A DNA stretch of 28,606 bases from a virus (taxonomy: Duplodnaviria > Heunggongvirae > Uroviricota > Caudoviricetes), in the IMG/VR virus record IMGVR_UViG_3300012347_000482, positions 117,051-145,656 of that record. One strand, written 5' to 3'. The translations under genes and the position numbers were made by a program. The notes beneath the pieces were generated by a model. That model worked only from the letters and a program-made list of their open reading frames with translations, did no database searches and was not told the origin of the DNA. Position 1 is the stretch's first letter. Every line of letters begins with the position of its first letter. This document shows, piece by piece, positions 3,858 to 15,249 of this stretch.

Positions 3858-3895
3858 AAAGGAAATATTTAAATGAAAAAACTCTTAATCGCATC
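3858..3895 (+). repeat. 38-bp direct repeat copy 1 (RBS + start of signal peptide)
   Basis: AAAGGAAATATTTAAATGAAAAAACTCTTAATCGCATC, identical to 4446-4483. Confidence 0.92.
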
Positions 3896-4325
3896 CGCAT
3901 TTGTGTTAGCTGCTACTGCCGCAAGTGCATTAGACTTCGGTGTTACAGCAGCTCGTGACTTCTCAGGAGTCGATCACGATTCAGTCGGCGTTACAGTAGG
4001 TCATGTTTATCCTAATGGCGTAGGCTTTTCTGCAGGGTTCGCTCGTGATGCTAACAAGTCAAGCGATCAAGATCGCTACAGCTTAATGGGTAGCTACGAT
4101 GTACTAAAATTCGGCGGCTCAACAGTTGCTGTTAAAGCCGGCGGTGTATTTATGGCAAATAGTGATGCCGAAAATGGTTCAGCTGCTGTAGTCGGTGCTG
4201 AACTTACAGTGCCGTTGACAAGCAAAATTGCAGCGACTTTTGAAGTATCGCACCAAGTTGGTCAAGATCGTGTTAGTCAAGACGATGGCAATCGTGCAAC
4301 TGTTGGTTTAAAATTCAAATTCTAA
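3873..4325 (+). CDS. Small outer-membrane beta-barrel protein (OmpA/Ail/Lom-like), copy A
   Basis: Sec signal MKKLLIASAFVLAATAASA, amphipathic beta-strands, C-terminal VGLKFKF ending in Phe (BAM signal). Confidence 0.8.
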   Translation: MKKLLIASAFVLAATAASALDFGVTAARDFSGVDHDSVGVTVGHVYPNGVGFSAGFARDANKSSDQDRYSLMGSYDVLKFGGSTVAVKAGGVFMANSDAENGSAAVVGAELTVPLTSKIAATFEVSHQVGQDRVSQDDGNRATVGLKFKF

Positions 4326-4445: not shown

Positions 4446-4483
4446 AAAGGAAATATTTAAATGAAAAAACTCTTAATCGCATC
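4446..4483 (+). repeat. 38-bp direct repeat copy 2
   Basis: Identical to 3858-3895. Confidence 0.92.
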
Positions 4484-4979
4484 AGCTCTTATTTTATCTG
4501 CATTTGCAGTATCTGCACAATCTGCTAAACCAGATATGTATGCAGAAGTAGGCTATACTCATGTTAATTTCAAAACAGACTTAGTTGAAGTTTCTCCGAC
4601 CGCTGTACGATTAGTACTAGGTAAAAATATTAACTCAGATGCGGCTATCGAAGGTCATGTATTAGTTGGATCATCGTCTGCTACGGCCGGAGCAGCTACA
4701 TACGACATCGATCCTAGCTACGGTGTTTTTCTTAAAGTGCAAGCACATGTAAGTGAATCAGTGAAAATTTATGCTCGAACAGGATGGGCACGAAGCAAAC
4801 TATCAGGTAGTGCATATGGCATTACTGTATCCGATTCTGCATCGGGCTTAGCAGGCGGTATCGGTGTAGCAGTTGCGCTAACAAAAGAATCAGAACTCTT
4901 TGTTGATGTTATGAAGTATAATACAGGTAGTGGTACTAACACCACTACTGCAACTACTGGCATTCGACTTAATTTTTAA
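4461..4979 (+). CDS. Small outer-membrane beta-barrel protein (OmpA/Ail/Lom-like), copy B
   Basis: Signal MKKLLIASALILSAFAVSA, YAEVGY first strand, C-terminal TGIRLNF. Confidence 0.82.
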   Translation: MKKLLIASALILSAFAVSAQSAKPDMYAEVGYTHVNFKTDLVEVSPTAVRLVLGKNINSDAAIEGHVLVGSSSATAGAATYDIDPSYGVFLKVQAHVSESVKIYARTGWARSKLSGSAYGITVSDSASGLAGGIGVAVALTKESELFVDVMKYNTGSGTNTTTATTGIRLNF

Positions 4980-5092: not shown

Positions 5093-6487
5093 ATGACCCC
5101 TGAACAAAACACTATAATAGTTAACGAATTACCATTAATACAAACATGCCCCAACTTTCTGTCAACAGATGAATGCAGCGAGCTTATTGAGTATTCAAAG
5201 GGTAAACTAGAGCAAGGCGAAGTAGTCGATGGTATAACTGGTGAATCCGTAGTCAACATTGACTACCGATCTGCATTTACTTGCGCACTCAGTAAGTCAT
5301 CAGAAATTAGTAAAAAGATATTTGACAAAGTAGAAAAATTTACAAATATAAGCTCGTTGCAATACGAAATTGCAAGTATTACACATTATGCAGTGGGTCA
5401 ACAATTTAAATTGCATCCAGACTATCTCAATCCACGAGATACACATGATAGCAAATCTATATTGCAATACGGCGGAAATCGTATCGGAACTATAATTATC
5501 TATCTTAATGAAGTAGAAAAAGGTGGAGAGACGTTATTTCCTTGGATAGGGCAATTTATTATTCCGAAAACTGGTAAGTTGGTGCATTTTAAGTACAATT
5601 ATTCTAACGCAGAACTAAACATTCGAACAGAGCACGCGAGTATGCCTGTATTAGAGGGAGAAAAGTATATTCTAACTATTTGGTTTAGAGAACAACCGGT
5701 ATCTAATATTGTCGAACATCCTTTAACATTTGTTGCCGAAGAAGCAATACGGACTAACTTAGTCGATACTAAATTTGAAATTAAGTGCGGTATTGCCGAG
5801 GATCAACAAATATTGTCAGTTGAGTTGCCTGCGAACAACGATCCTGCAAATGTTATATTGGTTCCATTTACTGGAGGGATGGATTCGTCATTATTGTTAT
5901 ATTTGATAGGTGCATTAAATAATCAGCAGTCAATACCGTATCATATTAGACCAATTTGCATTTATCTAATAGAAGCTGATGGTACACATAGTAATTTAGA
6001 AGATTACCAGGGCGTTATCGATATGTATGAATTGATTAAAAATAAAATCGGAGGCAACATTTCGTCATTGATGTTTGAACCTGGTAGATCAATACGACAC
6101 GGCATCCTTTCATATAAAGACGACAATAACCCGAGACACACAAAAACTCATAAATTTTTAAATAGAATGTATGTTTACAGTGCAGAAAATGCAATCCCGA
6201 ACGAAGATGATCCTCGATGGAAAAATGTTGGCTGGAGCCGAACGAAATCTACTATAGATTTCTGGAGACAGCCGTTTTTTAATCTTCAAAAATATCATAT
6301 TGTCGATGCCATGTTGCAATTAGGGCTAACTGATATAATAGAACATACTAGAAAGTGCCAGCATAATCATCCAACACTAGATCATGTTTGTAAATACATG
6401 CTATGTAATGAAAGACGATGGGCTTTTACTAAATTACAAAGAGAAGAAATTGGTAATAAATACTTTATAAACAAAGGAACACAATAA
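5093..6487 (+). CDS. Prolyl-4-hydroxylase-type 2OG-Fe(II) oxygenase fused to a QueC-like PP-loop domain, copy 1
   Basis: N-half: LHPD (HxD), RIGTIIIYLNEVEKGGETLFP, HASMPVLEGEKYILTIW. C-half: VPFTGGMDSS PP-loop and KCQHNH...C-KYML-CNERRWAF Cys cluster. Confidence 0.85.
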   Translation: MTPEQNTIIVNELPLIQTCPNFLSTDECSELIEYSKGKLEQGEVVDGITGESVVNIDYRSAFTCALSKSSEISKKIFDKVEKFTNISSLQYEIASITHYAVGQQFKLHPDYLNPRDTHDSKSILQYGGNRIGTIIIYLNEVEKGGETLFPWIGQFIIPKTGKLVHFKYNYSNAELNIRTEHASMPVLEGEKYILTIWFREQPVSNIVEHPLTFVAEEAIRTNLVDTKFEIKCGIAEDQQILSVELPANNDPANVILVPFTGGMDSSLLLYLIGALNNQQSIPYHIRPICIYLIEADGTHSNLEDYQGVIDMYELIKNKIGGNISSLMFEPGRSIRHGILSYKDDNNPRHTKTHKFLNRMYVYSAENAIPNEDDPRWKNVGWSRTKSTIDFWRQPFFNLQKYHIVDAMLQLGLTDIIEHTRKCQHNHPTLDHVCKYMLCNERRWAFTKLQREEIGNKYFINKGTQ

Positions 6488-6694
6488 ATGGAACTCGATA
6501 CTGTATTAGAATGGAAAGATCTAATTCCGTCTGCAGGAACTATAACTAAAACTCCGTCAACAAAATATATTGTTACCAACGGAGTAACTGGTGGTGGCAC
6601 CGGTCCAACAGATTTGAAGCCACCGAAACCAGTACCAAAAGATGACGGTGGGTCGACATTTACACCTCCTGATGACGGCGGTGAGTACGCATAA
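6488..6694 (+). CDS. Pro/Gly-rich small peptide, candidate precursor 1
   Basis: 68 aa; ATG abuts the enzyme stop; AAAGGA RBS lies within the enzyme's last codons (NKG); shares a motif with the peptide at 8245. Confidence 0.82.
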   Translation: MELDTVLEWKDLIPSAGTITKTPSTKYIVTNGVTGGGTGPTDLKPPKPVPKDDGGSTFTPPDDGGEYA

Positions 6695-6731
6695 TAATGC
6701 ATACTCTATAATATACTTGTATTAACAACAT

Positions 6732-6754
6732 CAATAGGGCCAGTGGCCCTATTG
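6732..6754 (+). terminator. Hairpin/terminator closing cassette 1
   Basis: CAATAGGGCC-AGT-GGCCCTATTG, 10-bp stem. Confidence 0.75.
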
Positions 6755-6829
6755 TTACGAGTAATTGCACTATCAAAATACAACACAGTGTAGTTTTATT
6801 TCATTAAATACAAAATATAGAACATTAAA

Positions 6830-8245
6830 ATGAACAATTACAACATTGAAACTTTGCAAGAACTCCCACTATTACAAGTAGTTAAACAATTCTTAAGCCC
6901 TGCCGAGTGCAAAGAAATTATAGAGTATAGTCAAGGTCGACTAGTTCCGAGTGAAGTTATAAGATACGAAGACGGACAACAAGTTGTAGATTATGCTATT
7001 CGATCTGCATCTACTACGTTTATTCCTACCGATAGCGAGTTAGGTCAACGAGTATTTGAAAAAGTTAGCAATTACTTAAATATCAGTAGTTCAAGATTCG
7101 AACGAATCGCAGTAACCCATTATTCGACAGGTCAAGAATTTAAACTGCATCCTGACTATTTTGCAACAGATAACAGTATCACAGGCCCTAATTCATCTGC
7201 AGAACGATGTAAATTTGGTGGTAATAGAATTTCTACTGTTATTGTGTATTTAAATACTGTAGAAGAAGGTGGCGAAACGCATTTTCCTTGGCTTGGAAAA
7301 TTTATAAAACCCGAACAAGGCGATTTAGTATTTTTTAAATACGACTATGACGATCCAGAATTAAATGTTAGAACAAATCATGCTAGCGTGCCAGTAATTG
7401 CCGGTGAAAAGTACATATTTACAATATGGATAAGAGAAACTACCATAGATCAAGAGTGTCTTGCATATAAAAACTTTACTGCAGAATCTGAATATTTAGA
7501 AAATTTAAAATCTGGAGAGTACGAACTTGAGTGCGGCCCAGCATATGATCGGCAACTATTAAAAGTAAATTTGCCAGCAAATACTGACCCGTGCAATACA
7601 ATTGTTGTACCGTATACCGGAGGAATGGACTCTTCATTAGTATTATATTTGTTAGGCGCCCTTAATAACCGACAAGTAATCCCGTATCACATTAAACCAA
7701 TATGTATATTTGAGGGGGATATGGAAAACTGGAATCCACTAGAAGATCACAGTAATGTCGAAAACATGGTTGAATTAATTCAACGTAAAATTGGCGGGAA
7801 TATTCGTCGCCCTAGTTTTATCCCGATGGAGCCAGGTACCAAGATGACTGATGCTATATTGGGATTTTATAGAAAAAATACCGCAGATCTTATACTAAAT
7901 AAATCGTTTAGATTTTTTAACCCAACATTAATTTATAGCGGAGAAAATGCATTGCCTACTGAAGACGATCATCGATGGAAGGACGTGCCTTGGTCTAGAA
8001 CACGATCGCATTCGCTAATTTGGATACAGCCGTTATTTAATTTAAAGAAATATCATATCCTTGATGCAATTATGCAATTGGGATTAGAAGATATATTAGA
8101 ACATACTTCAAAATGCCGTCATAATCACTTAAGTCTTGACGAGATTTGTCATTATATATTATGCAACGAAAGAAGATGGGCATTTACTAAATTAGGGTTA
8201 AGTGAGTTAGGTAATAAATACTTTATAAACAAAGGAGAAATATAA
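6830..8245 (+). CDS. Prolyl-4-hydroxylase-type 2OG-Fe(II) oxygenase fused to a QueC-like PP-loop domain, copy 2
   Basis: Paralog of 5093-6487: LHPD, YLNTVEEGGETHFP, HASVPVIAGEKY, VPYTGGMDSS, KCRHNH...C-HYIL-CNERRWAF. Confidence 0.85.
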   Translation: MNNYNIETLQELPLLQVVKQFLSPAECKEIIEYSQGRLVPSEVIRYEDGQQVVDYAIRSASTTFIPTDSELGQRVFEKVSNYLNISSSRFERIAVTHYSTGQEFKLHPDYFATDNSITGPNSSAERCKFGGNRISTVIVYLNTVEEGGETHFPWLGKFIKPEQGDLVFFKYDYDDPELNVRTNHASVPVIAGEKYIFTIWIRETTIDQECLAYKNFTAESEYLENLKSGEYELECGPAYDRQLLKVNLPANTDPCNTIVVPYTGGMDSSLVLYLLGALNNRQVIPYHIKPICIFEGDMENWNPLEDHSNVENMVELIQRKIGGNIRRPSFIPMEPGTKMTDAILGFYRKNTADLILNKSFRFFNPTLIYSGENALPTEDDHRWKDVPWSRTRSHSLIWIQPLFNLKKYHILDAIMQLGLEDILEHTSKCRHNHLSLDEICHYILCNERRWAFTKLGLSELGNKYFINKGEI

Positions 8246-8424
8246 TGAAAGAATCTACCATTATCGAGGAAAAATCTAATGTGTGGAGAGCATTTCCGGC
8301 CCCAGCAGCAGGTGTTATTAAATTGACAACTGCTGAGAAAGGAAAAATTTTAGCCGGAGTTTCACCTTCCCAACCTGGTGGACCTTCAAGCCCCACAGGA
8401 CCCGGTGCACCGGGCGATTTTTAA
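8245..8424 (+). CDS. Pro/Gly-rich small peptide, candidate precursor 2 (59 aa, not in ORF track)
   Basis: MKESTIIEEKSNVWRAFPAPAAGVIKLTTAEKGKILAGVSPSQPGGPSSPTGPGAPGDF*; TAATG stop/start overlap with the enzyme and AAAGGAG RBS. Confidence 0.82.
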   Translation: MKESTIIEEKSNVWRAFPAPAAGVIKLTTAEKGKILAGVSPSQPGGPSSPTGPGAPGDF

Positions 8425-8451: not shown

Positions 8452-8480
8452 TTGACCTCTAGTAATAACTGTTGTATAAT
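8452..8480 (+). promoter_or_regulatory. Sigma70-type promoter
   Basis: TTGACC-17 nt-TATAAT upstream of 8509. Confidence 0.75.
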
Positions 8481-9852: not shown

Positions 9853-11253
9853 ATGCTATTAGCTTTCTTAACATTTATTTCAGGCATTGCAATTTCAGCA
9901 GTTGCCATTTATTACAGTGTACTCGGTCTTGCCGCAATTTTTGCTGCAGCCGTTGTTCCAATTATAGTCATGGGCTCTATCTTAGAAGTCAGTAAATTAG
10001 TAACCGCCTGGTGGCTTAAACGCAACTGGGGACGAGCACCATTTTTACTAAAAACATACATGCTCACGGCTGTGTTAGTCCTTATGCTTATTACTAGTAT
10101 GGGCATTTTTGGCTTTCTAAGTAAAGCACACGGAGATCAAAGTGTACCAATCGGAGACATTGCTTCGCAAGTTGCAATGCTTGACGATGACATTAAAACA
10201 CGAAAAGATAATATCGAAGTTGCACGTAAATCTCTAATTCAACTAGACAGCCAAGTTAACGAAGTACTAAGTCGAAGTACTGATCAAAATGGAGCTGAAC
10301 GAGCTGGACAAATTCGTAAACGACAAACTATCGAAAGAGAAACCCTACAGAAAGAAATTTCAATTGCACAAGCAGAAATTGTAAAATTAAATCAACAACG
10401 TGCGCCAATTGCAGGTAAACTGCGAGCAGTTGAAGCAGAAGTTGGTCCTATTAAATACATTGCACAACTAATCTACGGCGACTCTCCTGATAAGAATGTT
10501 CTAGAAAAAGCAGTAGTATGGGTTATCATCATTATTGTGTTTGTATTTGACCCGCTAGCTGTATTACTATTGCTATCAAGTCAGTTGAGCTTTCAGTGGG
10601 CATTAATTGAGCGTGAAGAAAAGAAAAAACTTTTAAAAGCATCTCTAGTTAATAAAGACCCAACACCAGTAACTCCAGTAGTACCTGTACCTGTTGTATC
10701 ACCGACTCCAGTTCCTACAGCACCCCAAGAAGTGGTTGCAACTCCTATTACGCAGGAACCAGAAGTTGTACCAACTCCTGCACCAGTCCAAGAACACATC
10801 GCAGTTGCTGATAATAACGTCATTGAGATGGTTAACGATGATAAATTATCAATCGATAAACCTAACGAATTGCCAGTTGTTGATACTGAAGAAGTTTCTA
10901 ATACTGCTGATACCGAATCTGACGACGATGTTATTATCAATAGTGCAGCCGACGAAGCAAAAATTGCAATGGCTACATGGAAATCTGAAAACCCAGATGA
11001 CAGCTTAAAACATCAACGTATCTTGTTTAAACAAGGCTTAATTGACAAACTTCCATGGGAAGAATCACTTAAGCCAGTAGCAGACGAAGAAAACGAAGCT
11101 GCTATCGAAGCTGCCAAATGGGCGCAAGAACAACTCGACTCGTCTAAAAAAAAAGTAAATAGTCCTAAAACTAAATCAATTTCGTACATACAAAATGCCG
11201 AACAGTCAAATGACACAATTTGGCAACGTGTTAAGAAATCTAAAGGTGAATAA
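9853..11253 (+). CDS. Membrane protein: N-terminal TM helices, coiled coil, fourth TM, Pro/Val-rich linker, acidic tail
   Basis: Three hydrophobic segments, a heptad-like region, WVIIIIVFVFDPLAVLLLL, then PTPVTPVVPVPVVSPTPVPTAP. Confidence 0.8.
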   Translation: MLLAFLTFISGIAISAVAIYYSVLGLAAIFAAAVVPIIVMGSILEVSKLVTAWWLKRNWGRAPFLLKTYMLTAVLVLMLITSMGIFGFLSKAHGDQSVPIGDIASQVAMLDDDIKTRKDNIEVARKSLIQLDSQVNEVLSRSTDQNGAERAGQIRKRQTIERETLQKEISIAQAEIVKLNQQRAPIAGKLRAVEAEVGPIKYIAQLIYGDSPDKNVLEKAVVWVIIIIVFVFDPLAVLLLLSSQLSFQWALIEREEKKKLLKASLVNKDPTPVTPVVPVPVVSPTPVPTAPQEVVATPITQEPEVVPTPAPVQEHIAVADNNVIEMVNDDKLSIDKPNELPVVDTEEVSNTADTESDDDVIINSAADEAKIAMATWKSENPDDSLKHQRILFKQGLIDKLPWEESLKPVADEENEAAIEAAKWAQEQLDSSKKKVNSPKTKSISYIQNAEQSNDTIWQRVKKSKGE

Positions 11254-12410: not shown

Positions 12411-14288
12411 ATGTCAAAGATCATCGGTATTGATTTAGGTACTACCAATTCCTGCGTTGCTGTTATTGAAAACGGCGTTCCAAAAATTATCGAAAATAGC
12501 GAAGGTGCTCGTACTACACCAAGCATCGTTGCATACACAAATGACGAAATTCTAGTCGGTGCTAGTGCTAAGCGTCAAGCTGTAACAAATCCCAAAAATA
12601 CAATTTATGCTGCTAAGCGATTGATCGGTCGCAAGTTTAAAGAAGATGCTGTACAAAAAGACATCGGATTAATGCCGTATGTAATTACGGAATCTTCAAA
12701 TGGTGATGCTTGGATTAAAGCATCTGATCGAGAGTTAGCTCCCCCTCAAGTATCTGCAGAAGTTCTTCGCAAAATGAAAAAAACTGCTGAAGATTATTTA
12801 GGAGAAGAAGTAACTCAAGCAGTAATTACAGTACCGGCATATTTTAATGATAGCCAAAGACAAGCTACTAAAGATGCAGGTAAAATTGCAGGGTTAGAAG
12901 TACTGCGAATTATTAATGAACCAACAGCAGCAGCATTGGCTTATGGTGTTGATAAACAAGACAAAGCAGATCGTAAAATTGCAGTATACGACTTAGGTGG
13001 AGGTACCTTTGACGTTAGCATTATTGAAATTGCAAATGTCGACGGTGAGAAGCAAATCGAAGTACTTTCAACTAACGGTGATACATTTTTAGGCGGTGAA
13101 GACTTTGATCAACGCATTATGGATTTCTTAGTTGAAGAATTCAAGAAAGATAACGGCATTGACTTAACTAAAGACGGACTAGCGTTGCAACGATTAAAAG
13201 ATTCTGCAGAAAAAGCAAAGATTGAATTATCAAGCTCTGCTCAAACAGAAGTTAATCTACCGTATATTACTGCTGATGCAAGCGGTCCTAAACATTTAGT
13301 AGTTAAATTAACTCGAAGCAAACTAGAAAGCTTAGTAGACGAACTTGTAAGTCGCAGTATTGCTCCTTGTAAAACTGCAATGAAAGATGCCGGAGTTACT
13401 GCTAATGATATCGACGAAGTTATCTTAGTAGGCGGCATGACTCGTATGCCTAAAGTTCAAGAAGCCGTTGAAAAATTATTTGGTAAAGCACCACGTAAAG
13501 ATGTTAATCCAGACGAAGCAGTAGCTGCTGGTGCTGCAGTTCAAGGTGCTGTACTAGGTGGTGATCGTAAAGATGTGTTATTGTTAGACGTAACTCCGTT
13601 AAGTTTAGGTATCGAAACATTAGGTGGAGTAATGACTAAGCTAATTCAGAAAAACACAACTATTCCATCTAAAGCTAGCCAAACATTTAGTACTGCTGAA
13701 GACAATCAACCTGCTGTAACTATTAAAGCATTCCAAGGCGAGCGTGAGTTAGTTCAACATAATAAATTATTAGGTGAGTTTAATTTAGAAGGAATTGCTC
13801 CTGCTCGCCGAGGACAGCCGCAAATCGAAGTCACATTTGATATTGATGCAAACGGTATTATGCATATTTCTGCCAAAGATAAAACTACTGGTAAGGAAAA
13901 TAAAATTACTATTAAGAGTAATAGCGGCTTAACTGATGCCGAGATTCAAACTATGATTCGCGAAGCTGAAGAAAATGCAGAAGCTGATAAGAAAGCTCGT
14001 TCATTAATTGATGCTCGTAATTCAGCAGAAGCACAACTGCACGAAGTTCGTAAAGATATTGCCGAGTATGGCAATCAATTATCAGTTAGCGAAAAAGCAG
14101 AATTAGACGAAGTGATTGCATCTGTTGAAGAAGTTGTTAAGGGCGACGATGCTGACAAAATCACCGAAGCTCTAAATAAAGTATATCCAGCAATGGCTGT
14201 ATTATTAGAGAAAAAGCAAGCTGCTGAACAAGCAAATCAGACGACTGATAATGTAGTTGACGCAGAAGTTAAAGATTCTACTAGTTAA
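12411..14288 (+). CDS. dnaK: Hsp70 chaperone DnaK
   Basis: [52 protein letters not shown], terminal VVDAE; Betaproteobacteria-like [13 protein letters not shown]. Confidence 0.98.
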
Positions 14289-14294
14289 TTAGTA

Positions 14295-14317
14295 AAATAG
14301 GGGCAACGCCCCTATTT
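14295..14317 (+). terminator. Terminator after dnaK
   Basis: AAATAGGGGC-AAC-GCCCCTATTT. Confidence 0.85.
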
Positions 14318-14381
14318 ACAATGCATGAATTTTATTGTATAATAACTATATGTTTGCAAATACTGTTAAGGTTTGCAAATC

Positions 14382-14412
14382 GAGCATAGTGCTCATTCTT
14401 ACTTTAAGGAGA
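14382..14412 (+). promoter_or_regulatory. Shared heat-shock-gene leader element (copy at hsp20)
   Basis: GAGCATAGTGCTCA-TTCTTACTTTAAGGAGA. Confidence 0.65.
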
Positions 14413-14417
14413 AAATT

Positions 14418-14855
14418 ATGAATAATCAAATGTTAAAAGCAGATAAATTAGATGCAATCAATCGTATGCTAGTTGGTTTCGACTCTATGTTTACAAATTT
14501 AGAAAATCGATATAATATTACATCGCCAACTAATTACCCGCCTCATAATTTATTAAAACTCACTGATAATCTATACGAAATTCAACTTGCAGTTACTGGT
14601 TTTGAAAAAGACGAAATTCATGTTGAAGTTGATAACAATATATTAACTATCAAAGGGAATAGGGAACACAAAGATGAATGCGAATACATTCACAGAGGGT
14701 TATCTACTAAAGATTTCACAAGAGCATTTCCTCTTGCTGAATTTATAGAAGTTCGTAACGCAACTATTAAAAACGGTCTACTGATTATTAGTATCGTTAG
14801 GAATATACCCGAAGCTAAGAAGCCTCGTATTGTTGATATTATCGAAGTTAAATAA
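14418..14855 (+). CDS. hsp20: Small heat-shock protein (Hsp20/IbpA family)
   Basis: NYPPHN, LAVTGF, YIHRGLS, FTRAFPLAE, NGLLII, KKPRIVDI. Start moved to the ATG at 14418 behind AAGGAG. Confidence 0.94.
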   Translation: MNNQMLKADKLDAINRMLVGFDSMFTNLENRYNITSPTNYPPHNLLKLTDNLYEIQLAVTGFEKDEIHVEVDNNILTIKGNREHKDECEYIHRGLSTKDFTRAFPLAEFIEVRNATIKNGLLIISIVRNIPEAKKPRIVDIIEVK

Positions 14856-14896
14856 CCCCCGGGGGAGAAATCCCCTTAAACTAAGGAAAGAAAAAT

Positions 14897-15196
14897 ATGT
14901 CTACTGACGTTAAGATTAGCAATAAAGTCGCTGTTGCTGTAAAACCACCAGGTATGTGGAAAGTAATTTTGTTAAATGACGATCATACTCCTATGGATTT
15001 CGTTATATCGCTGTTAACTGATATTTTTAAACACAGCGTATCATCGGCAACTGATGTAACTCTCGACATACATAATACAGGAAGCGGTATTGCTGGTGTT
15101 TATAGTCATGAAGTTGCAGAACAACGAGGCATTGACGCATCACATCTTGCAAAAGAACACAATTATCCATTACAAATAATGGTCGAAGAAGAATAA
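14897..15196 (+). CDS. clpS: Clp protease adaptor ClpS
   Basis: WKVILLNDDHTPMDFV and IHNTGSGIAGVY motifs. Confidence 0.92.
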   Translation: MSTDVKISNKVAVAVKPPGMWKVILLNDDHTPMDFVISLLTDIFKHSVSSATDVTLDIHNTGSGIAGVYSHEVAEQRGIDASHLAKEHNYPLQIMVEEE

Positions 15197-15202
15197 CACA
15201 CT

Positions 15203-15229
15203 AAAGCCATTAAAATTAATGGCTTTTTT
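15203..15229 (+). terminator. Terminator after clpS
   Basis: AAAGCCATTA-AAAT-TAATGGCTTT plus T-run. Confidence 0.75.
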
Positions 15230-15249
15230 ATTAATATTAAATAATTATT

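What the first reader, a model, noticed from the sequence alone, without database searches (positions are those of the whole stretch)
6488..8424. Two peptides share a leader-like motif with exact spacing and have hypervariable Pro/Gly cores
Seen: peptide 1 has W-KDLI-PSAGTITKTPSTKYIVTNGV and peptide 2 (missed by the ORF track) has W-RAFPA-PAAGVIKLTTAEKGKILAGV. Both fit P-x-A-G-x-I-x2-T-x3-K-x5-G-V-[T/S] without gaps, with an upstream Trp. After GV they diverge: TGGGTGPTDLKPPKPVPKDDGGSTFTPPDDGGEYA (internal PxDDGG duplication) versus SPSQPGGPSSPTGPGAPGDF (X-Pro-Gly triplets QPG, GPG, APG). Both end in G-[D/E]-[F/Y]. Established: conserved leader plus variable core is the hallmark of RiPP precursors. 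Inference: the leader docks the enzyme, core prolines are hydroxylated, and the terminal G-[DE]-aromatic or C-terminal carboxylate is the PP-loop target.
Basis: partly seen in the sequence, partly recalled or inferred. Interest (0 to 1): 0.8.

Follow-up and report, generated by a model that had tools for sequence, protein, structure and literature searches.

The report
Phage peptide-modifying enzyme with cognate peptides
Two tiny genes directly behind two duplicated phage enzymes encode real, fast-evolving proline/glycine-rich peptides with a conserved docking motif; the same enzyme-plus-peptide pair recurs in about twenty uncultured phages, which points to an undescribed peptide-modification system.

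Summary
Both peptides (6488-6694 and 8245-8424) are present as described and share the ungapped motif.

A profile built only from peptides of other phages picks these two out of 780 six-frame ORFs of the window (E 1e-7 and 8e-4; next best 0.14).

Each peptide gene starts at the stop codon of a 464/471-aa enzyme. The enzyme is an intact collagen-type prolyl 4-hydroxylase fused to a divergent QueC-family PP-loop domain. In all 21 other cassettes examined (about 15 distinct phage lineages), a homologous enzyme is followed, -38 to +41 nt from its stop, by such a peptide. Nearly all have a ribosome-binding site.

The peptides have a conserved [L/P]-x-x-G-x-[I/V/L] motif, a 10-17 residue spacer, a G-x-[S/A]-P entry and a hypervariable Pro/Gly tail. 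In the closest ortholog pair the tail dN is 0.56 against 0.024 for the enzyme.

A complex model (ipSAE 0.77, best control 0.00) docks the motif as a beta-strand on the QueC-like domain. It places the first tail proline at the hydroxylase iron site.

The RiPP-like reading is partly supported. The PP-loop target is unknown, the terminal G-[D/E]-aromatic is not conserved, and no protease or exporter co-occurs. Three relatives fuse the peptide to a self-cleaving Hint domain.

The scan noted this same stretch before (e1-5442615) and an analogous trio in Erwinia phage Y3.

The parts
5093..6487 (+). Enzyme 1 (464 aa). N-terminal prolyl 4-hydroxylase domain (about 5093-5730) fused to a QueC-like PP-loop domain (about 5735-6487). 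PP-loop T-G-G-M-D-S at 5870-5887.
   Evidence: Pfam PF13640 E 1.4e-10. 53% identical to enzyme 2. Weak QueC match E 0.0075 at the C-terminal metal-site region.
6473..6478 (+). Shine-Dalgarno-like AAAGGA for peptide 1. It lies inside the enzyme's conserved terminal Asn-Lys-Gly codons.
   Evidence: Read. The same arrangement is seen in nearly all of 23 cassettes.
6488..6694 (+). Peptide 1 (68 aa). Its ATG directly follows the enzyme's TAA. Docking motif and spacer at 6527-6589; variable Pro/Gly/Asp tail at 6587-6691.
   Evidence: Profile from other loci E 8e-4. Identical in a 261-kb relative and 63% identical with indels in L159, against 78% for the enzyme.
6732..6754 (.). Palindromic GC-rich hairpin between the two cassettes (10-bp stem).
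   Evidence: Its function as a terminator was not shown.
6830..8245 (+). Enzyme 2 (471 aa). P4H domain with H107, D109, H184 and K194. QueC-like domain from about residue 215, with PP-loop T263-S268 at 7616-7633. Metal-site residues C431, H433, C440, C445, followed by E-R-R-W.
   Evidence: C-domain model pLDDT 89. Fold matches. hhalign to the stand-alone QueC-like family E 8e-44.
8232..8237 (+). Shine-Dalgarno AAGGAG for peptide 2.
8245..8424 (+). Peptide 2 (59 aa). TAATG overlap with the enzyme 2 stop. Docking motif and spacer at 8302-8364; Pro/Gly tail at 8365-8421.
   Evidence: Profile from other loci E 1.2e-7. Complex model ipSAE 0.77 against best control 0.00. Leader dN/dS 0.13 against L191.
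8452..8480 (+). Promoter-like site (11 of 12 consensus matches) that marks the start of the next transcription unit, so the cassette ends at peptide 2.
   Evidence: This is a consensus match only.

Best explanation
A tandemly duplicated two-gene peptide-modification module of a large uncultured phage.

Each module makes a bifunctional enzyme (collagen-type prolyl 4-hydroxylase fused to a divergent QueC-family PP-loop ATPase domain). By translational coupling it also makes a short cognate peptide.

The peptide's conserved [L/P]-x-x-G-x-[I/V/L] stretch docks as an antiparallel beta-strand. It sits on the beta-hairpin and first helix of the QueC-like domain, at the interface with the hydroxylase domain. 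This feeds the following G-x-[S/A]-P entry and the Pro/Gly-rich tail into the Fe/2-oxoglutarate site, where prolines are hydroxylated.

The QueC-like domain then carries out a second, ATP-dependent step. The most likely step is adenylation of the peptide's C-terminal carboxylate, leading to an amide, a nitrile or a ligation product.

Shown: the genes, their conservation and coupling, the domain identities, and the conserved/variable anatomy.
Predicted by models: docking and access to the hydroxylase site.
Inferred: hydroxylation itself, all chemistry of the QueC-like domain, and the biological role of the product.
For: Gene pair conserved:
- All 21 other cassettes with a homologous enzyme (about 15 distinct lineages; several loci are near-duplicates) have a short ORF starting -38 to +41 nt (median -1) from the enzyme stop. 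Nearly all have an AAGGA/GGAG site.
- A natural in-frame enzyme-peptide fusion exists (P0010).

Homology of the peptides.

Selection:
- Leader dN/dS is 0.13 (window against L191).
- In the pair where the enzymes are 95% identical, enzyme dN is 0.024, leader dN 0.115 and tail dN 0.56.

Hydroxylase domain:
- The family profile hits Bacillus anthracis P4H at E 1e-47. It also hits Chlamydomonas, human C-P4H alpha-2 and PBCV-1 P4H.
- H-x-D...H and the 2OG lysine are invariant in 40 sequences.

QueC-like domain:
- VIA Z 12.4 to QueC 3bl5 and 11.8 to Cap9 9nto_B, at rmsd 2.8-3.4 A.
- hhalign probability 100%, E 8e-44, to a stand-alone phage family. 27 of 28 members of that family match Pfam QueC.
- T/S-G-G-x-D-S, three Cys plus one His, and E-R-R-W are conserved.

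Docking:
- ipSAE 0.77 (three runs 0.76-0.78) against a best control of 0.00. That mark was reached by 58 of 80 solved complexes and 2 of 110 mismatched pairs. Runs share at least 55% of contacts; partner pLDDT is 50-55.
- Peptide residues 22-28 pair with enzyme 227-233 and touch 273-281 and 413-418. Peptide residues 38-43 touch 107-112.
- An AlphaFold2 model of the natural fusion P0010 turns the six residues after the conserved Gly into a strand at pLDDT about 66. The rest of the tail is below 50.

Precedents:
- The PP-loop enzymes PesC, TsrC and ScdTA act on RiPP C-terminal carboxylates, beside a proline hydroxylase in the pes cluster (10.64898/2026.03.11.711119).
- The QueC-family proteins Cap9 and QatC act on protein termini (PMC13279940).

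Analogous trio: a separate PP-loop enzyme, a Pro-repeat micro-peptide and a P4H in Erwinia phage Y3.

QueC-like domain kept when the hydroxylase is lost: two relatives have lost hydroxylase iron ligands (H107 to Q, H184 to Y) but keep the QueC-like domain. Their fused tails are not Pro-rich.
Against: - No modification has been observed.
- The complex model is a prediction. The proline-in-P4H part may reflect memory of solved P4H-peptide complexes. The peptide's last 16 residues and the PP-loop itself are not among the confident contacts.
- The PP-loop motif deviates from S-G-G-x-D-S: Thr first, Asp to Glu or Gly to Ala in some members, and a one-residue deletion in one clade. One of the four QueC cysteines is lost. 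Catalytic competence is therefore not assured.
- The C-terminal residues are not conserved.
- The precursor lies downstream of the enzyme and is tightly coupled to it, which is unusual for high-turnover RiPP substrates.
- No protease or exporter recurs in the gene tables.
- The co-variation between a dead hydroxylase and a proline-poor tail rests on two proteins. Their docking motif is only weakly recognised (E 0.18 and 9.9).
- A stand-alone close homologue without a hydroxylase is followed by a Thr/Pro-rich peptide that lacks the motif.
Confidence: 0.6

Rival explanations
1. Hydroxylation only. The peptide is a hydroxylase substrate, and the QueC-like domain has become a non-catalytic docking module, playing the part that RiPP recognition elements play elsewhere. 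No ATP-dependent step follows.
For: - All confident contacts of the docking motif are on the hairpin and helices of the QueC-like domain, not in its PP-loop.
- The PP-loop and the metal site deviate from the canonical QueC motifs.
- The window domain is below Pfam's QueC threshold.
Against: - The Gly, Asp and Ser of the PP-loop, the Cys/His cluster and E-R-R-W are invariant or nearly so across sequences only 32-50% identical.
- Two relatives with dead hydroxylase ligands keep the domain. One of them has a canonical S-G-G-M-D-S.
- Phages of the Y3 type pair the same kind of hydroxylase and a Pro-rich peptide with a different PP-loop enzyme. This suggests the ATP-dependent chemistry is part of the pathway.
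Confidence: 0.15
2. Peptide tag. The hydroxyproline-rich peptide is not an end product but is joined through its activated C-terminus to another molecule (a phage or host protein, the cell envelope, or a nucleic acid). Activation would be adenylate from the QueC-like domain, or thioester in the Hint-fused forms.
For: - Three independent loci fuse the peptide directly to a Hint module. The module's first Cys aligns with Cys1 of the PI-SceI intein, and its end lacks the His-Asn plus nucleophile needed for splicing. It could therefore only cleave at the peptide's C-terminus through a thioester.
- The QueC relatives Cap9 and QatC make or are thought to make protein conjugates (PMC13279940).
- Enzyme and peptide are made in a coupled, roughly stoichiometric way.
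Against: - No acceptor is known.
- The C-terminal residues vary widely.
- Hint loci keep the QueC-like domain, so the two activating routes would be redundant.
- Thioester hydrolysis to a free acid is an equally good reading.
Confidence: 0.1
3. Regulatory partner. The peptide is a pseudo-substrate, chaperone or subunit that controls an enzyme whose real substrates are other proline-rich proteins of the phage or host.
For: - Tight translational coupling and a downstream position.
- The window encodes a membrane protein (9853-11253) with a long Pro/Val/Thr linker. It was the third-best hit of the peptide profile, at E 0.14.
Against: - The Pro-rich tail evolves about 20 times faster than the enzyme, which does not fit a fixed regulatory interface.
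- The peptide's proline entry is modelled in the catalytic site like a substrate.
- Such a proline-linker protein was seen only in the window; neighbouring genes of the other loci were not examined for one.
Confidence: 0.1
4. Chance ORFs. The two short frames are not genes.
For: The ORFs are short, of low complexity, have no Pfam match, and one was missed by an ORF track.
Against: - The position, ribosome-binding sites and motif are conserved in all cassettes examined.
- Purifying selection acts on the leader.
- Gene callers call them in relatives.
Confidence: 0.01

Closest known systems
Leader-guided RiPP tailoring, especially the nitrilobacillin (pes) pathway and the C-terminal amidases TsrC and ScdTA (10.64898/2026.03.11.711119)
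   Same: - A short ribosomal peptide with a conserved recognition part and a variable modified part.
- A 2-oxoglutarate enzyme that hydroxylates proline, together with a PP-loop-superfamily enzyme that adenylates the peptide's C-terminal carboxylate.
   Different: - The enzymes are unrelated at family level: an asparagine-synthetase-like enzyme and a HExxH hydroxylase there, a QueC-like domain and a collagen-type P4H fused in one chain here.
- No RRE, protease or exporter is present here.
- The host is a phage.
- The precursor lies downstream and is translationally coupled.
- The chemistry here is unproven.
Peptidyl prolyl 4-hydroxylases (Bacillus anthracis P4H 5iax/3itq, Chlamydomonas P4H 2jig/3gze, PBCV-1 P4H 5c5t, human C-P4H)
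   Same: - Clear sequence homology (E 1e-47 to 1e-22).
- An invariant iron triad and 2OG lysine.
- Substrates of the known enzymes are Pro-rich polyproline-II peptides such as X-Pro-Gly, Ser-Pro and Pro-Ala-Pro-Lys repeats (from established knowledge). The tails here resemble them.
   Different: This enzyme is fused to a QueC-like domain and paired with a dedicated encoded micro-substrate. Substrate capture appears to rely on a docking motif outside the hydroxylase domain.
QueC family, including the protein-directed members Cap9 (type IV CBASS) and QatC (PMC13279940; 10.1101/2025.04.06.647259)
   Same: - The fold (Z 12.4 and 11.8).
- The PP-loop and the C-terminal metal-site region with a following Arg-containing helix.
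- A disordered protein tail as the presumed substrate.
   Different: - Thr replaces the first Ser of the PP-loop.
- The metal site is Cys3-His-like instead of Cys4.
- The domain scores below Pfam's QueC threshold.
- The peptides have no conserved N-terminal Gly.
- No 7-deazaguanine genes are present in the 145.7-kb record.
- The nucleobase-binding Tyr/Asp pair was not examined.
PP-loop enzyme + Pro-repeat micro-peptide + P4H trio of Erwinia phage vB_EamM_Y3 and relatives (earlier scan finding e1-4038741)
   Same: - The same three functions sit side by side in a jumbo phage.
- Its hydroxylase is a homologue of the N-domain here (28-32% identity, E 1e-13 to 1e-19).
- The peptide is short, Pro-rich and ends in an aromatic residue.
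   Different: - The genes are separate.
- The PP-loop enzyme is annotated as asparagine synthase and shows no significant similarity to the domain here (E 0.17).
- The peptide is an Asp-Pro-Ala repeat without the docking motif.
- It lies beside a gene annotated as a tRNA methyltransferase, which the earlier scan note reads as part of a DNA cytosine-modification set.
Hedgehog-type and bacterial intein-like Hint autoprocessing domains
   Same: In three relatives the peptide is followed at once by a Hint module beginning with Cys. The module has no terminal His-Asn plus nucleophile. This is the hallmark of N-terminal cleavage through a thioester without splicing.
   Different: The module is attached to a 40-63 residue proline-rich peptide next to a tailoring enzyme. 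The full-text searches run here found no paper pairing a Hint domain with a precursor peptide.

Membership tests
RiPP-type precursor/tailoring system | Short ribosomal precursor gene next to its tailoring enzyme | tested here: met
   All 23 cassettes, gap -38 to +41 nt.
RiPP-type precursor/tailoring system | Conserved recognition region and variable modified region | tested here: met
   Alignment A3. Leader dN 0.115 against tail dN 0.56, with enzyme dN 0.024.
RiPP-type precursor/tailoring system | Enzyme binds the recognition region | tested here: inconclusive
   Prediction only: ipSAE 0.77 against best control 0.00, and a strand in the AF2 model of a natural fusion. No binding was measured.
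RiPP-type precursor/tailoring system | Post-translational modification of the core actually occurs | not testable with these tools
   Needs mass spectrometry of the co-expressed peptide.
RiPP-type precursor/tailoring system | Leader removal and export functions (common but not universal) | tested here: not met
   No protease or transporter recurs in the gene tables of ten loci or next to the window cassettes.
Peptidyl prolyl 4-hydroxylase (2OG-Fe(II) oxygenase, PF13640) | Homology to characterised P4Hs above family threshold | tested here: met
   PF13640 at 42.5 and 46.5 bits against a cut-off of 27. Profile against PDB E 1e-47 to 5e-22.
Peptidyl prolyl 4-hydroxylase (2OG-Fe(II) oxygenase, PF13640) | His-x-Asp...His iron triad and 2-oxoglutarate-binding Lys | tested here: met
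   H107, D109, H184 and K194 are invariant in 40 sequences. They are lost only in P0081 and P0083.
QueC family (PF06508) within the PP-loop ATP pyrophosphatases | Adenine-nucleotide alpha-hydrolase fold with QueC-type C-terminal part | tested here: met
   Model pLDDT 89. Z 12.7 TilS, 12.4 QueC (residues 35-245), 12.0 LarE, 11.8 Cap9. Foldseek E about 1e-5.
QueC family (PF06508) within the PP-loop ATP pyrophosphatases | S-G-G-x-D-S pyrophosphate loop | tested here: inconclusive
   The motif is T-G-G-M-D-S here. Gly and the last Ser are invariant; Thr and Asp are present in at least 90%. Some members have Ala for Gly, Glu for Asp, or a deletion.
QueC family (PF06508) within the PP-loop ATP pyrophosphatases | Four-Cys zinc site near the C-terminus | tested here: not met
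   Only three of the four cysteines align, and the first of these is not invariant. An invariant His lies nearby. Metal binding is untested.
QueC family (PF06508) within the PP-loop ATP pyrophosphatases | Score above Pfam gathering threshold | tested here: not met
   12.9 and 16.2 bits against a cut-off of 22. The link is indirect, through the stand-alone phage family: hhalign E 8e-44, and 27 of 28 of those members hit QueC.
QueC family (PF06508) within the PP-loop ATP pyrophosphatases | 7-carboxy-7-deazaguanine recognition (Tyr/Asp pair) and pathway partners QueD/QueE/TGT | tested here: inconclusive
   No PTPS, TGT or canonical QueC in the 145.7-kb record, which is only about 41% complete. 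The Tyr/Asp pair was not examined.
Cap9/QatC-type N-terminal protein modification | Conserved N-terminal Met-Gly motif on the substrate tail | tested here: not met
   The second residues of the peptides are Glu, Lys, Asn, Thr, Asp, Gln, Ser, Leu or Ile. None is Gly.

The most novel reading that the evidence does not exclude
Large aquatic and sewage phages carry a previously undescribed class of ribosomal peptide tags. These are hydroxyproline-rich, hypervariable peptides whose C-terminus is activated for covalent attachment to a phage or host target. Activation is either by a QueC-derived adenylating domain or, in some lineages, by a fused Hint thioester module. This would amount to a phage-encoded, ubiquitin-like but unrelated conjugation system, with fast evolution of the tag driven by conflict with the host.
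Probability: 0.1. Interest if true: 0.9.

Novelty: new variant of a known kind. Interest (0 to 1): 0.72.

Why it matters
If the model holds, this is a compact and widely spread phage module. About 30 clusters at 50% identity have the fused architecture, from lakes, sea and sewage. In a single polypeptide with a built-in substrate-docking site, it combines two chemistries that bacteria use in separate RiPP enzymes.

It would give:
- a first function for the many 'prolyl 4-hydroxylase' auxiliary genes annotated in phage metagenomes;
- a new, peptide-directed branch of the QueC family, beside Cap9 and QatC;
- a minimal two-gene system for installing hydroxyproline, and possibly C-terminal amide or nitrile groups, on tolerant and highly variable sequences;
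- natural peptide-Hint fusions that hint at C-terminal activation.

The hypervariable tails beside nearly identical enzymes also suggest an arms-race role that could be tested directly.

Tried and rejected
- Scan of bacterial and archaeal genomes with the C-domain alignment failed for lack of a conserved stretch. Presence in cellular genomes is untested.
- Five full-text searches aimed at this architecture found no paper describing a P4H-QueC fusion, a phage P4H with a cognate peptide, or a Hint-fused precursor peptide. One search gave the QueC-family precedents and the nitrilobacillin precedent. This covers open-access text only.
- Stop-codon readthrough as the way the peptide is made: only peptide 1 is in frame with its enzyme; most others are in other frames or overlap. 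Rejected in favour of coupled re-initiation.
- Side-chain Asp/Glu as the PP-loop target: the ortholog of peptide 2 in L159 has no acidic residue in its tail. Rejected as a general mechanism.
- Cap9-like N-terminal modification: no N-terminal Gly. Rejected.
- True splicing intein in the three fused forms: the end of the Hint module lacks His-Asn plus a nucleophile. Splicing is judged unlikely, but this rests on reading the sequence only.
- The peptide profile does not recognise the Y3 Asp-Pro-Ala peptide or the Thr/Pro peptide after the stand-alone domain in L195. These are analogues, not members.
- The tails of P0081 and P0083 match only weakly (E 0.18 and 9.9).
- An iron-sulfur/thiolation reading (the best Foldseek hits are TtuA and LarE; a NifU-like gene precedes one stand-alone homologue) was considered. 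It is left open at low weight because the Cys pattern follows QueC's zinc site.
Full report
**What is there.** The window is part of a 145,656-bp IMG/VR viral record, estimated about 41% complete. It carries phage hallmark genes: a virion structural protein, a phage ATPase and an exonuclease. Between 5093 and 8424 lie two tandem cassettes on the + strand. Enzyme 1 (5093-6487, 464 aa) is followed by peptide 1 (6488-6694, 68 aa). Enzyme 2 (6830-8245, 471 aa) is followed by peptide 2 (8245-8424, 59 aa). The enzymes are 53% identical over their whole length. Peptide 1's ATG directly follows the enzyme's TAA. Peptide 2's ATG shares one base with the enzyme's TAA. Both have an AAGGA-type site 7-9 nt upstream, inside the last codons of the enzyme gene.

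**The observation.** Both peptides fit the ungapped pattern from the Pro of the motif to G-V-[T/S], with a Trp a few residues upstream. The tails read as described. Pairwise BLASTP is weak but positive (E 0.002). The stronger test uses other phages. I built a profile from 18 downstream peptides of other loci, leaving out the window and its near relative. I then searched all 780 six-frame ORFs of the window. Peptide 2 came first (E 1.2e-7), peptide 1 second (8e-4) and the next ORF scored 0.14. In the whole viral record only these two places match.

**Conservation elsewhere.**
- The enzyme has about 45 full-length relatives in the word-indexed search, all metagenomic.
- An exhaustive profile search with the C-terminal domain gives 30 clusters at E 1e-30 or better, 130 at 1e-10 and 645 at 1e-3.
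- I fetched loci for full-length relatives from viral and metagenome collections.
- In all 21 other cassettes (about 15 distinct lineages; several loci are near-duplicates) a short ORF starts -38 to +41 nt from the enzyme stop (median -1). Nearly all have a ribosome-binding site, and gene callers usually call it.
- The enzyme's conserved terminal Asn-Lys-Gly is encoded by AAC-AAA-GGA, so it doubles as that ribosome-binding site.
- One relative (P0010) has enzyme and peptide in one frame without a stop.

**Anatomy of the peptides (alignment A3).**
- A variable N-terminal stretch of about 5-25 residues.
- A [L/P]-x-x-G-x-[I/V/L] motif whose Gly is present in at least 90% of sequences.
- A spacer of about 10-17 residues.
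- An entry of the type G-[V/P/A]-[S/A]-P.
- A Pro/Gly-rich tail of very variable length and sequence.

The exact spacing and the Trp are features of this phage clade only.

**Evolution of the peptides.**
- In the relative L159, enzyme 2 is 95% identical to the window's but peptide 2 only 72%, with indels.
- By Nei-Gojobori counts, enzyme dN is 0.024, leader dN 0.115 and tail dN 0.56.
- Against the more distant L191 the leader has dN/dS 0.13. It is therefore translated and under purifying selection.
- The terminal G-[D/E]-aromatic is not conserved. The orthologs of peptide 2 end in GGF, PGF and INY, and that of peptide 1 in PGL.
- About 10 of the 20 non-Hint peptides end in, or next to, an aromatic residue.

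**The enzyme, N-terminal half.** This half is a genuine peptidyl prolyl 4-hydroxylase. Pfam PF13640 is above threshold. The family profile hits Bacillus anthracis P4H at E 1e-47, Chlamydomonas P4H at 2e-33, human C-P4H alpha-2 at 8e-25 and PBCV-1 P4H at 5e-22. The iron ligands and the 2-oxoglutarate lysine are invariant in 40 sequences.

**The enzyme, C-terminal half.**
- It has no Pfam match above threshold.
- It folds with high confidence (pLDDT 89) into a PP-loop ATP-pyrophosphatase fold. Matches are Z 12.7 to TilS, 12.4 to QueC (covering residues 35-245), 12.0 to LarE and 11.8 to the CBASS protein Cap9 at rmsd 2.8 A. Foldseek gives E about 1e-5 to TtuA, LarE and QueC.
- A family of stand-alone phage proteins of about 200 aa bridges it to QueC. 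Profile-profile comparison gives probability 100%, E 8e-44 over 205 columns. 27 of 28 of those proteins match Pfam QueC.
- Compared with them, the fused domain has Thr for the first Ser of the PP-loop. It has lost one of the four zinc-site cysteines while gaining an invariant His. It keeps the Cys-x-Glu-Arg-Arg-Trp helix.
- The viral record has no QueD, TGT or canonical QueC. A role in 7-deazaguanine synthesis is therefore unlikely, though the record is incomplete.

**How peptide and enzyme fit.**
- A complex prediction with my alignments gave ipSAE 0.77 (runs 0.77, 0.76, 0.78) against a best control of 0.00. That mark was reached by 58 of 80 solved complexes and 2 of 110 mismatched pairs. The runs share at least 55% of contacts and the partner's pLDDT is 50-55, so its own fold is uncertain.
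- The model supports binding but does not show it.
- Peptide residues 22-28, which hold the conserved motif, pair antiparallel with enzyme residues 227-233. This is the first strand of a hairpin that opens the QueC-like domain. They also pack against 273-281, the helix that follows the PP-loop, and 413-418.
- Residues 38-43, the G-V-S-P entry, touch 107-112, which include two iron ligands.
- The last 16 residues and the PP-loop are not among the confident contacts.
- An independent AlphaFold2 model of the natural fusion P0010, with no alignment depth for its tail, makes the six residues after the conserved Gly a strand at pLDDT about 66. The rest of the tail stays below 50.
- The proline-in-hydroxylase part may be helped by memory of solved P4H-peptide complexes. 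I know of no solved analogue of the docking on the QueC-like hairpin.

**Variants that inform the mechanism.**
1. In three loci (L081, L161, L165) the peptide is fused, right after its Pro-rich part, to a Hint module.
   - Pfam places the start of the Hint exactly at the Cys.
   - This Cys aligns with Cys1 of the PI-SceI intein.
   - The module's end has no His-Asn plus nucleophile.
   - It looks like a Hedgehog- or BIL-type self-cleaving domain that would release the peptide through a C-terminal thioester. This draws attention to the peptide's C-terminus.
2. Two relatives (P0081, P0083) have lost hydroxylase ligands (His to Gln, His to Tyr) but keep the QueC-like domain.
   - They carry in-frame tails that are Cys-rich or Gly/Asp-rich rather than Pro-rich.
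   - This fits 'hydroxylase acts on the prolines, QueC-like domain does something else'.
   - It rests on only two cases, whose docking motif is weak by profile.
3. A close stand-alone QueC-like protein without a hydroxylase is followed by a Thr/Pro-rich 48-aa peptide without the motif. This blurs that picture.
4. Following a lead from an earlier scan note (e1-4038741), I confirmed a trio in Erwinia phage Y3. An annotated asparagine synthase (a different PP-loop family), a 49-aa Asp-Pro-Ala repeat peptide and a P4H homologous to the N-domain here sit side by side. The trio of PP-loop enzyme, Pro-rich micro-peptide and P4H therefore appears to have been assembled with two different PP-loop lineages. 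This argues that the ATP-dependent step is part of the pathway.

**Mechanism proposed.**
- The conserved motif docks on the QueC-like domain.
- The tail is hydroxylated on prolines.
- The QueC-like domain adenylates a carboxylate of the peptide. Some tails have no acidic residue, so the only universal carboxylate is the C-terminus.
- There is precedent. The PP-loop enzymes PesC (nitrile), TsrC and ScdTA (amide) act on RiPP C-termini, in the pes cluster beside a proline hydroxylase (10.64898/2026.03.11.711119).
- QueC itself turns a carboxylate into an amide and then a nitrile with ammonia, per that paper's discussion.
- Cap9 and QatC show QueC-family enzymes working on disordered protein tails (PMC13279940).
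- This last step is inference. I give it roughly one chance in three, against about two in three for hydroxylation of the peptide and about 0.85 for the peptides being real cognate partners of the enzymes.

**Known or new.** The logic is that of leader-guided peptide tailoring, and both enzyme superfamilies are known. The following are not described in the open-access literature I could search:
- the fused P4H/QueC-like architecture;
- its built-in docking site;
- the coupled hypervariable peptide;
- the phage-only distribution seen so far;
- the Hint-fused forms.

The scan itself has noted this same stretch before (e1-5442615, e1-5442617), and analogous cassettes on other phage DNA (e1-4038741, e1-3417801). 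I file it as a new variant of a known kind. No protease or exporter accompanies it, and its biological role in infection is unknown.

Noticed in passing
window 9853-11253 (+): A 466-aa predicted membrane protein has a long Pro/Val/Thr-rich linker whose wording resembles the tails of peptides in other loci. It was the third-best hit of the peptide profile (E 0.14). It could be another substrate of the hydroxylases.
   Followed up: no
L081:3876-4589, L161:3278-3988, L165:4391-5119: The peptide is fused directly to a Hint autoprocessing module that lacks a splicing-type C-terminal end, followed by a 35-40 residue tail with a conserved acidic/aromatic patch.
   Followed up: partly
P0019 (696 aa): One full-length enzyme homologue carries a Hom_end_hint (intein-type) insertion in or after the enzyme itself.
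   Followed up: no
P0078 (828 aa); L197:217-2047: Internally duplicated or split forms in which one hydroxylase/QueC-like unit has a degenerate PP-loop and the other an intact one. This suggests pseudo-enzyme partners.
   Followed up: no
L174-L188; A6: A large family (hundreds of clusters) of stand-alone phage QueC-like proteins of about 200 aa with a canonical PP-loop and four Cys. Their neighbours vary: a Dam-like methylase-looking ORF (my reading of its N-terminal motif, not searched), a NifU-like gene and a 2OG oxygenase. Their function is unknown.
   Followed up: partly
L198 (Erwinia phage Y3, record 13437-15232): An annotated asparagine synthase, a 49-aa Asp-Pro-Ala repeat peptide and a 2OG-Fe(II) oxygenase sit side by side. 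This is an analogous trio in a cultured jumbo phage that could serve as an experimental model.
   Followed up: partly
window 3873-4325 and 4461-4979 (+): Two outer-membrane beta-barrel-like genes with the same signal-peptide start lie just upstream of the cassettes. The same gene order is kept in relatives.
   Followed up: no
L002:6365-6649, L163:5799-5975, L082:5817-6005: A small conserved protein with a shared N-terminal motif lies a few hundred bases downstream of the peptide gene in three otherwise different loci.
   Followed up: no
window 12411-14288 (+): The phage encodes a full-length DnaK/Hsp70 homologue. This is my reading of the translation; no family search was run on it.
   Followed up: no
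L167 and L168: In some relatives the enzyme sits in an island of redox and iron genes: NifU, rubrerythrin, rubredoxin, AhpC, further 2OG and Asp/Arg hydroxylases, and radical SAM.
   Followed up: no
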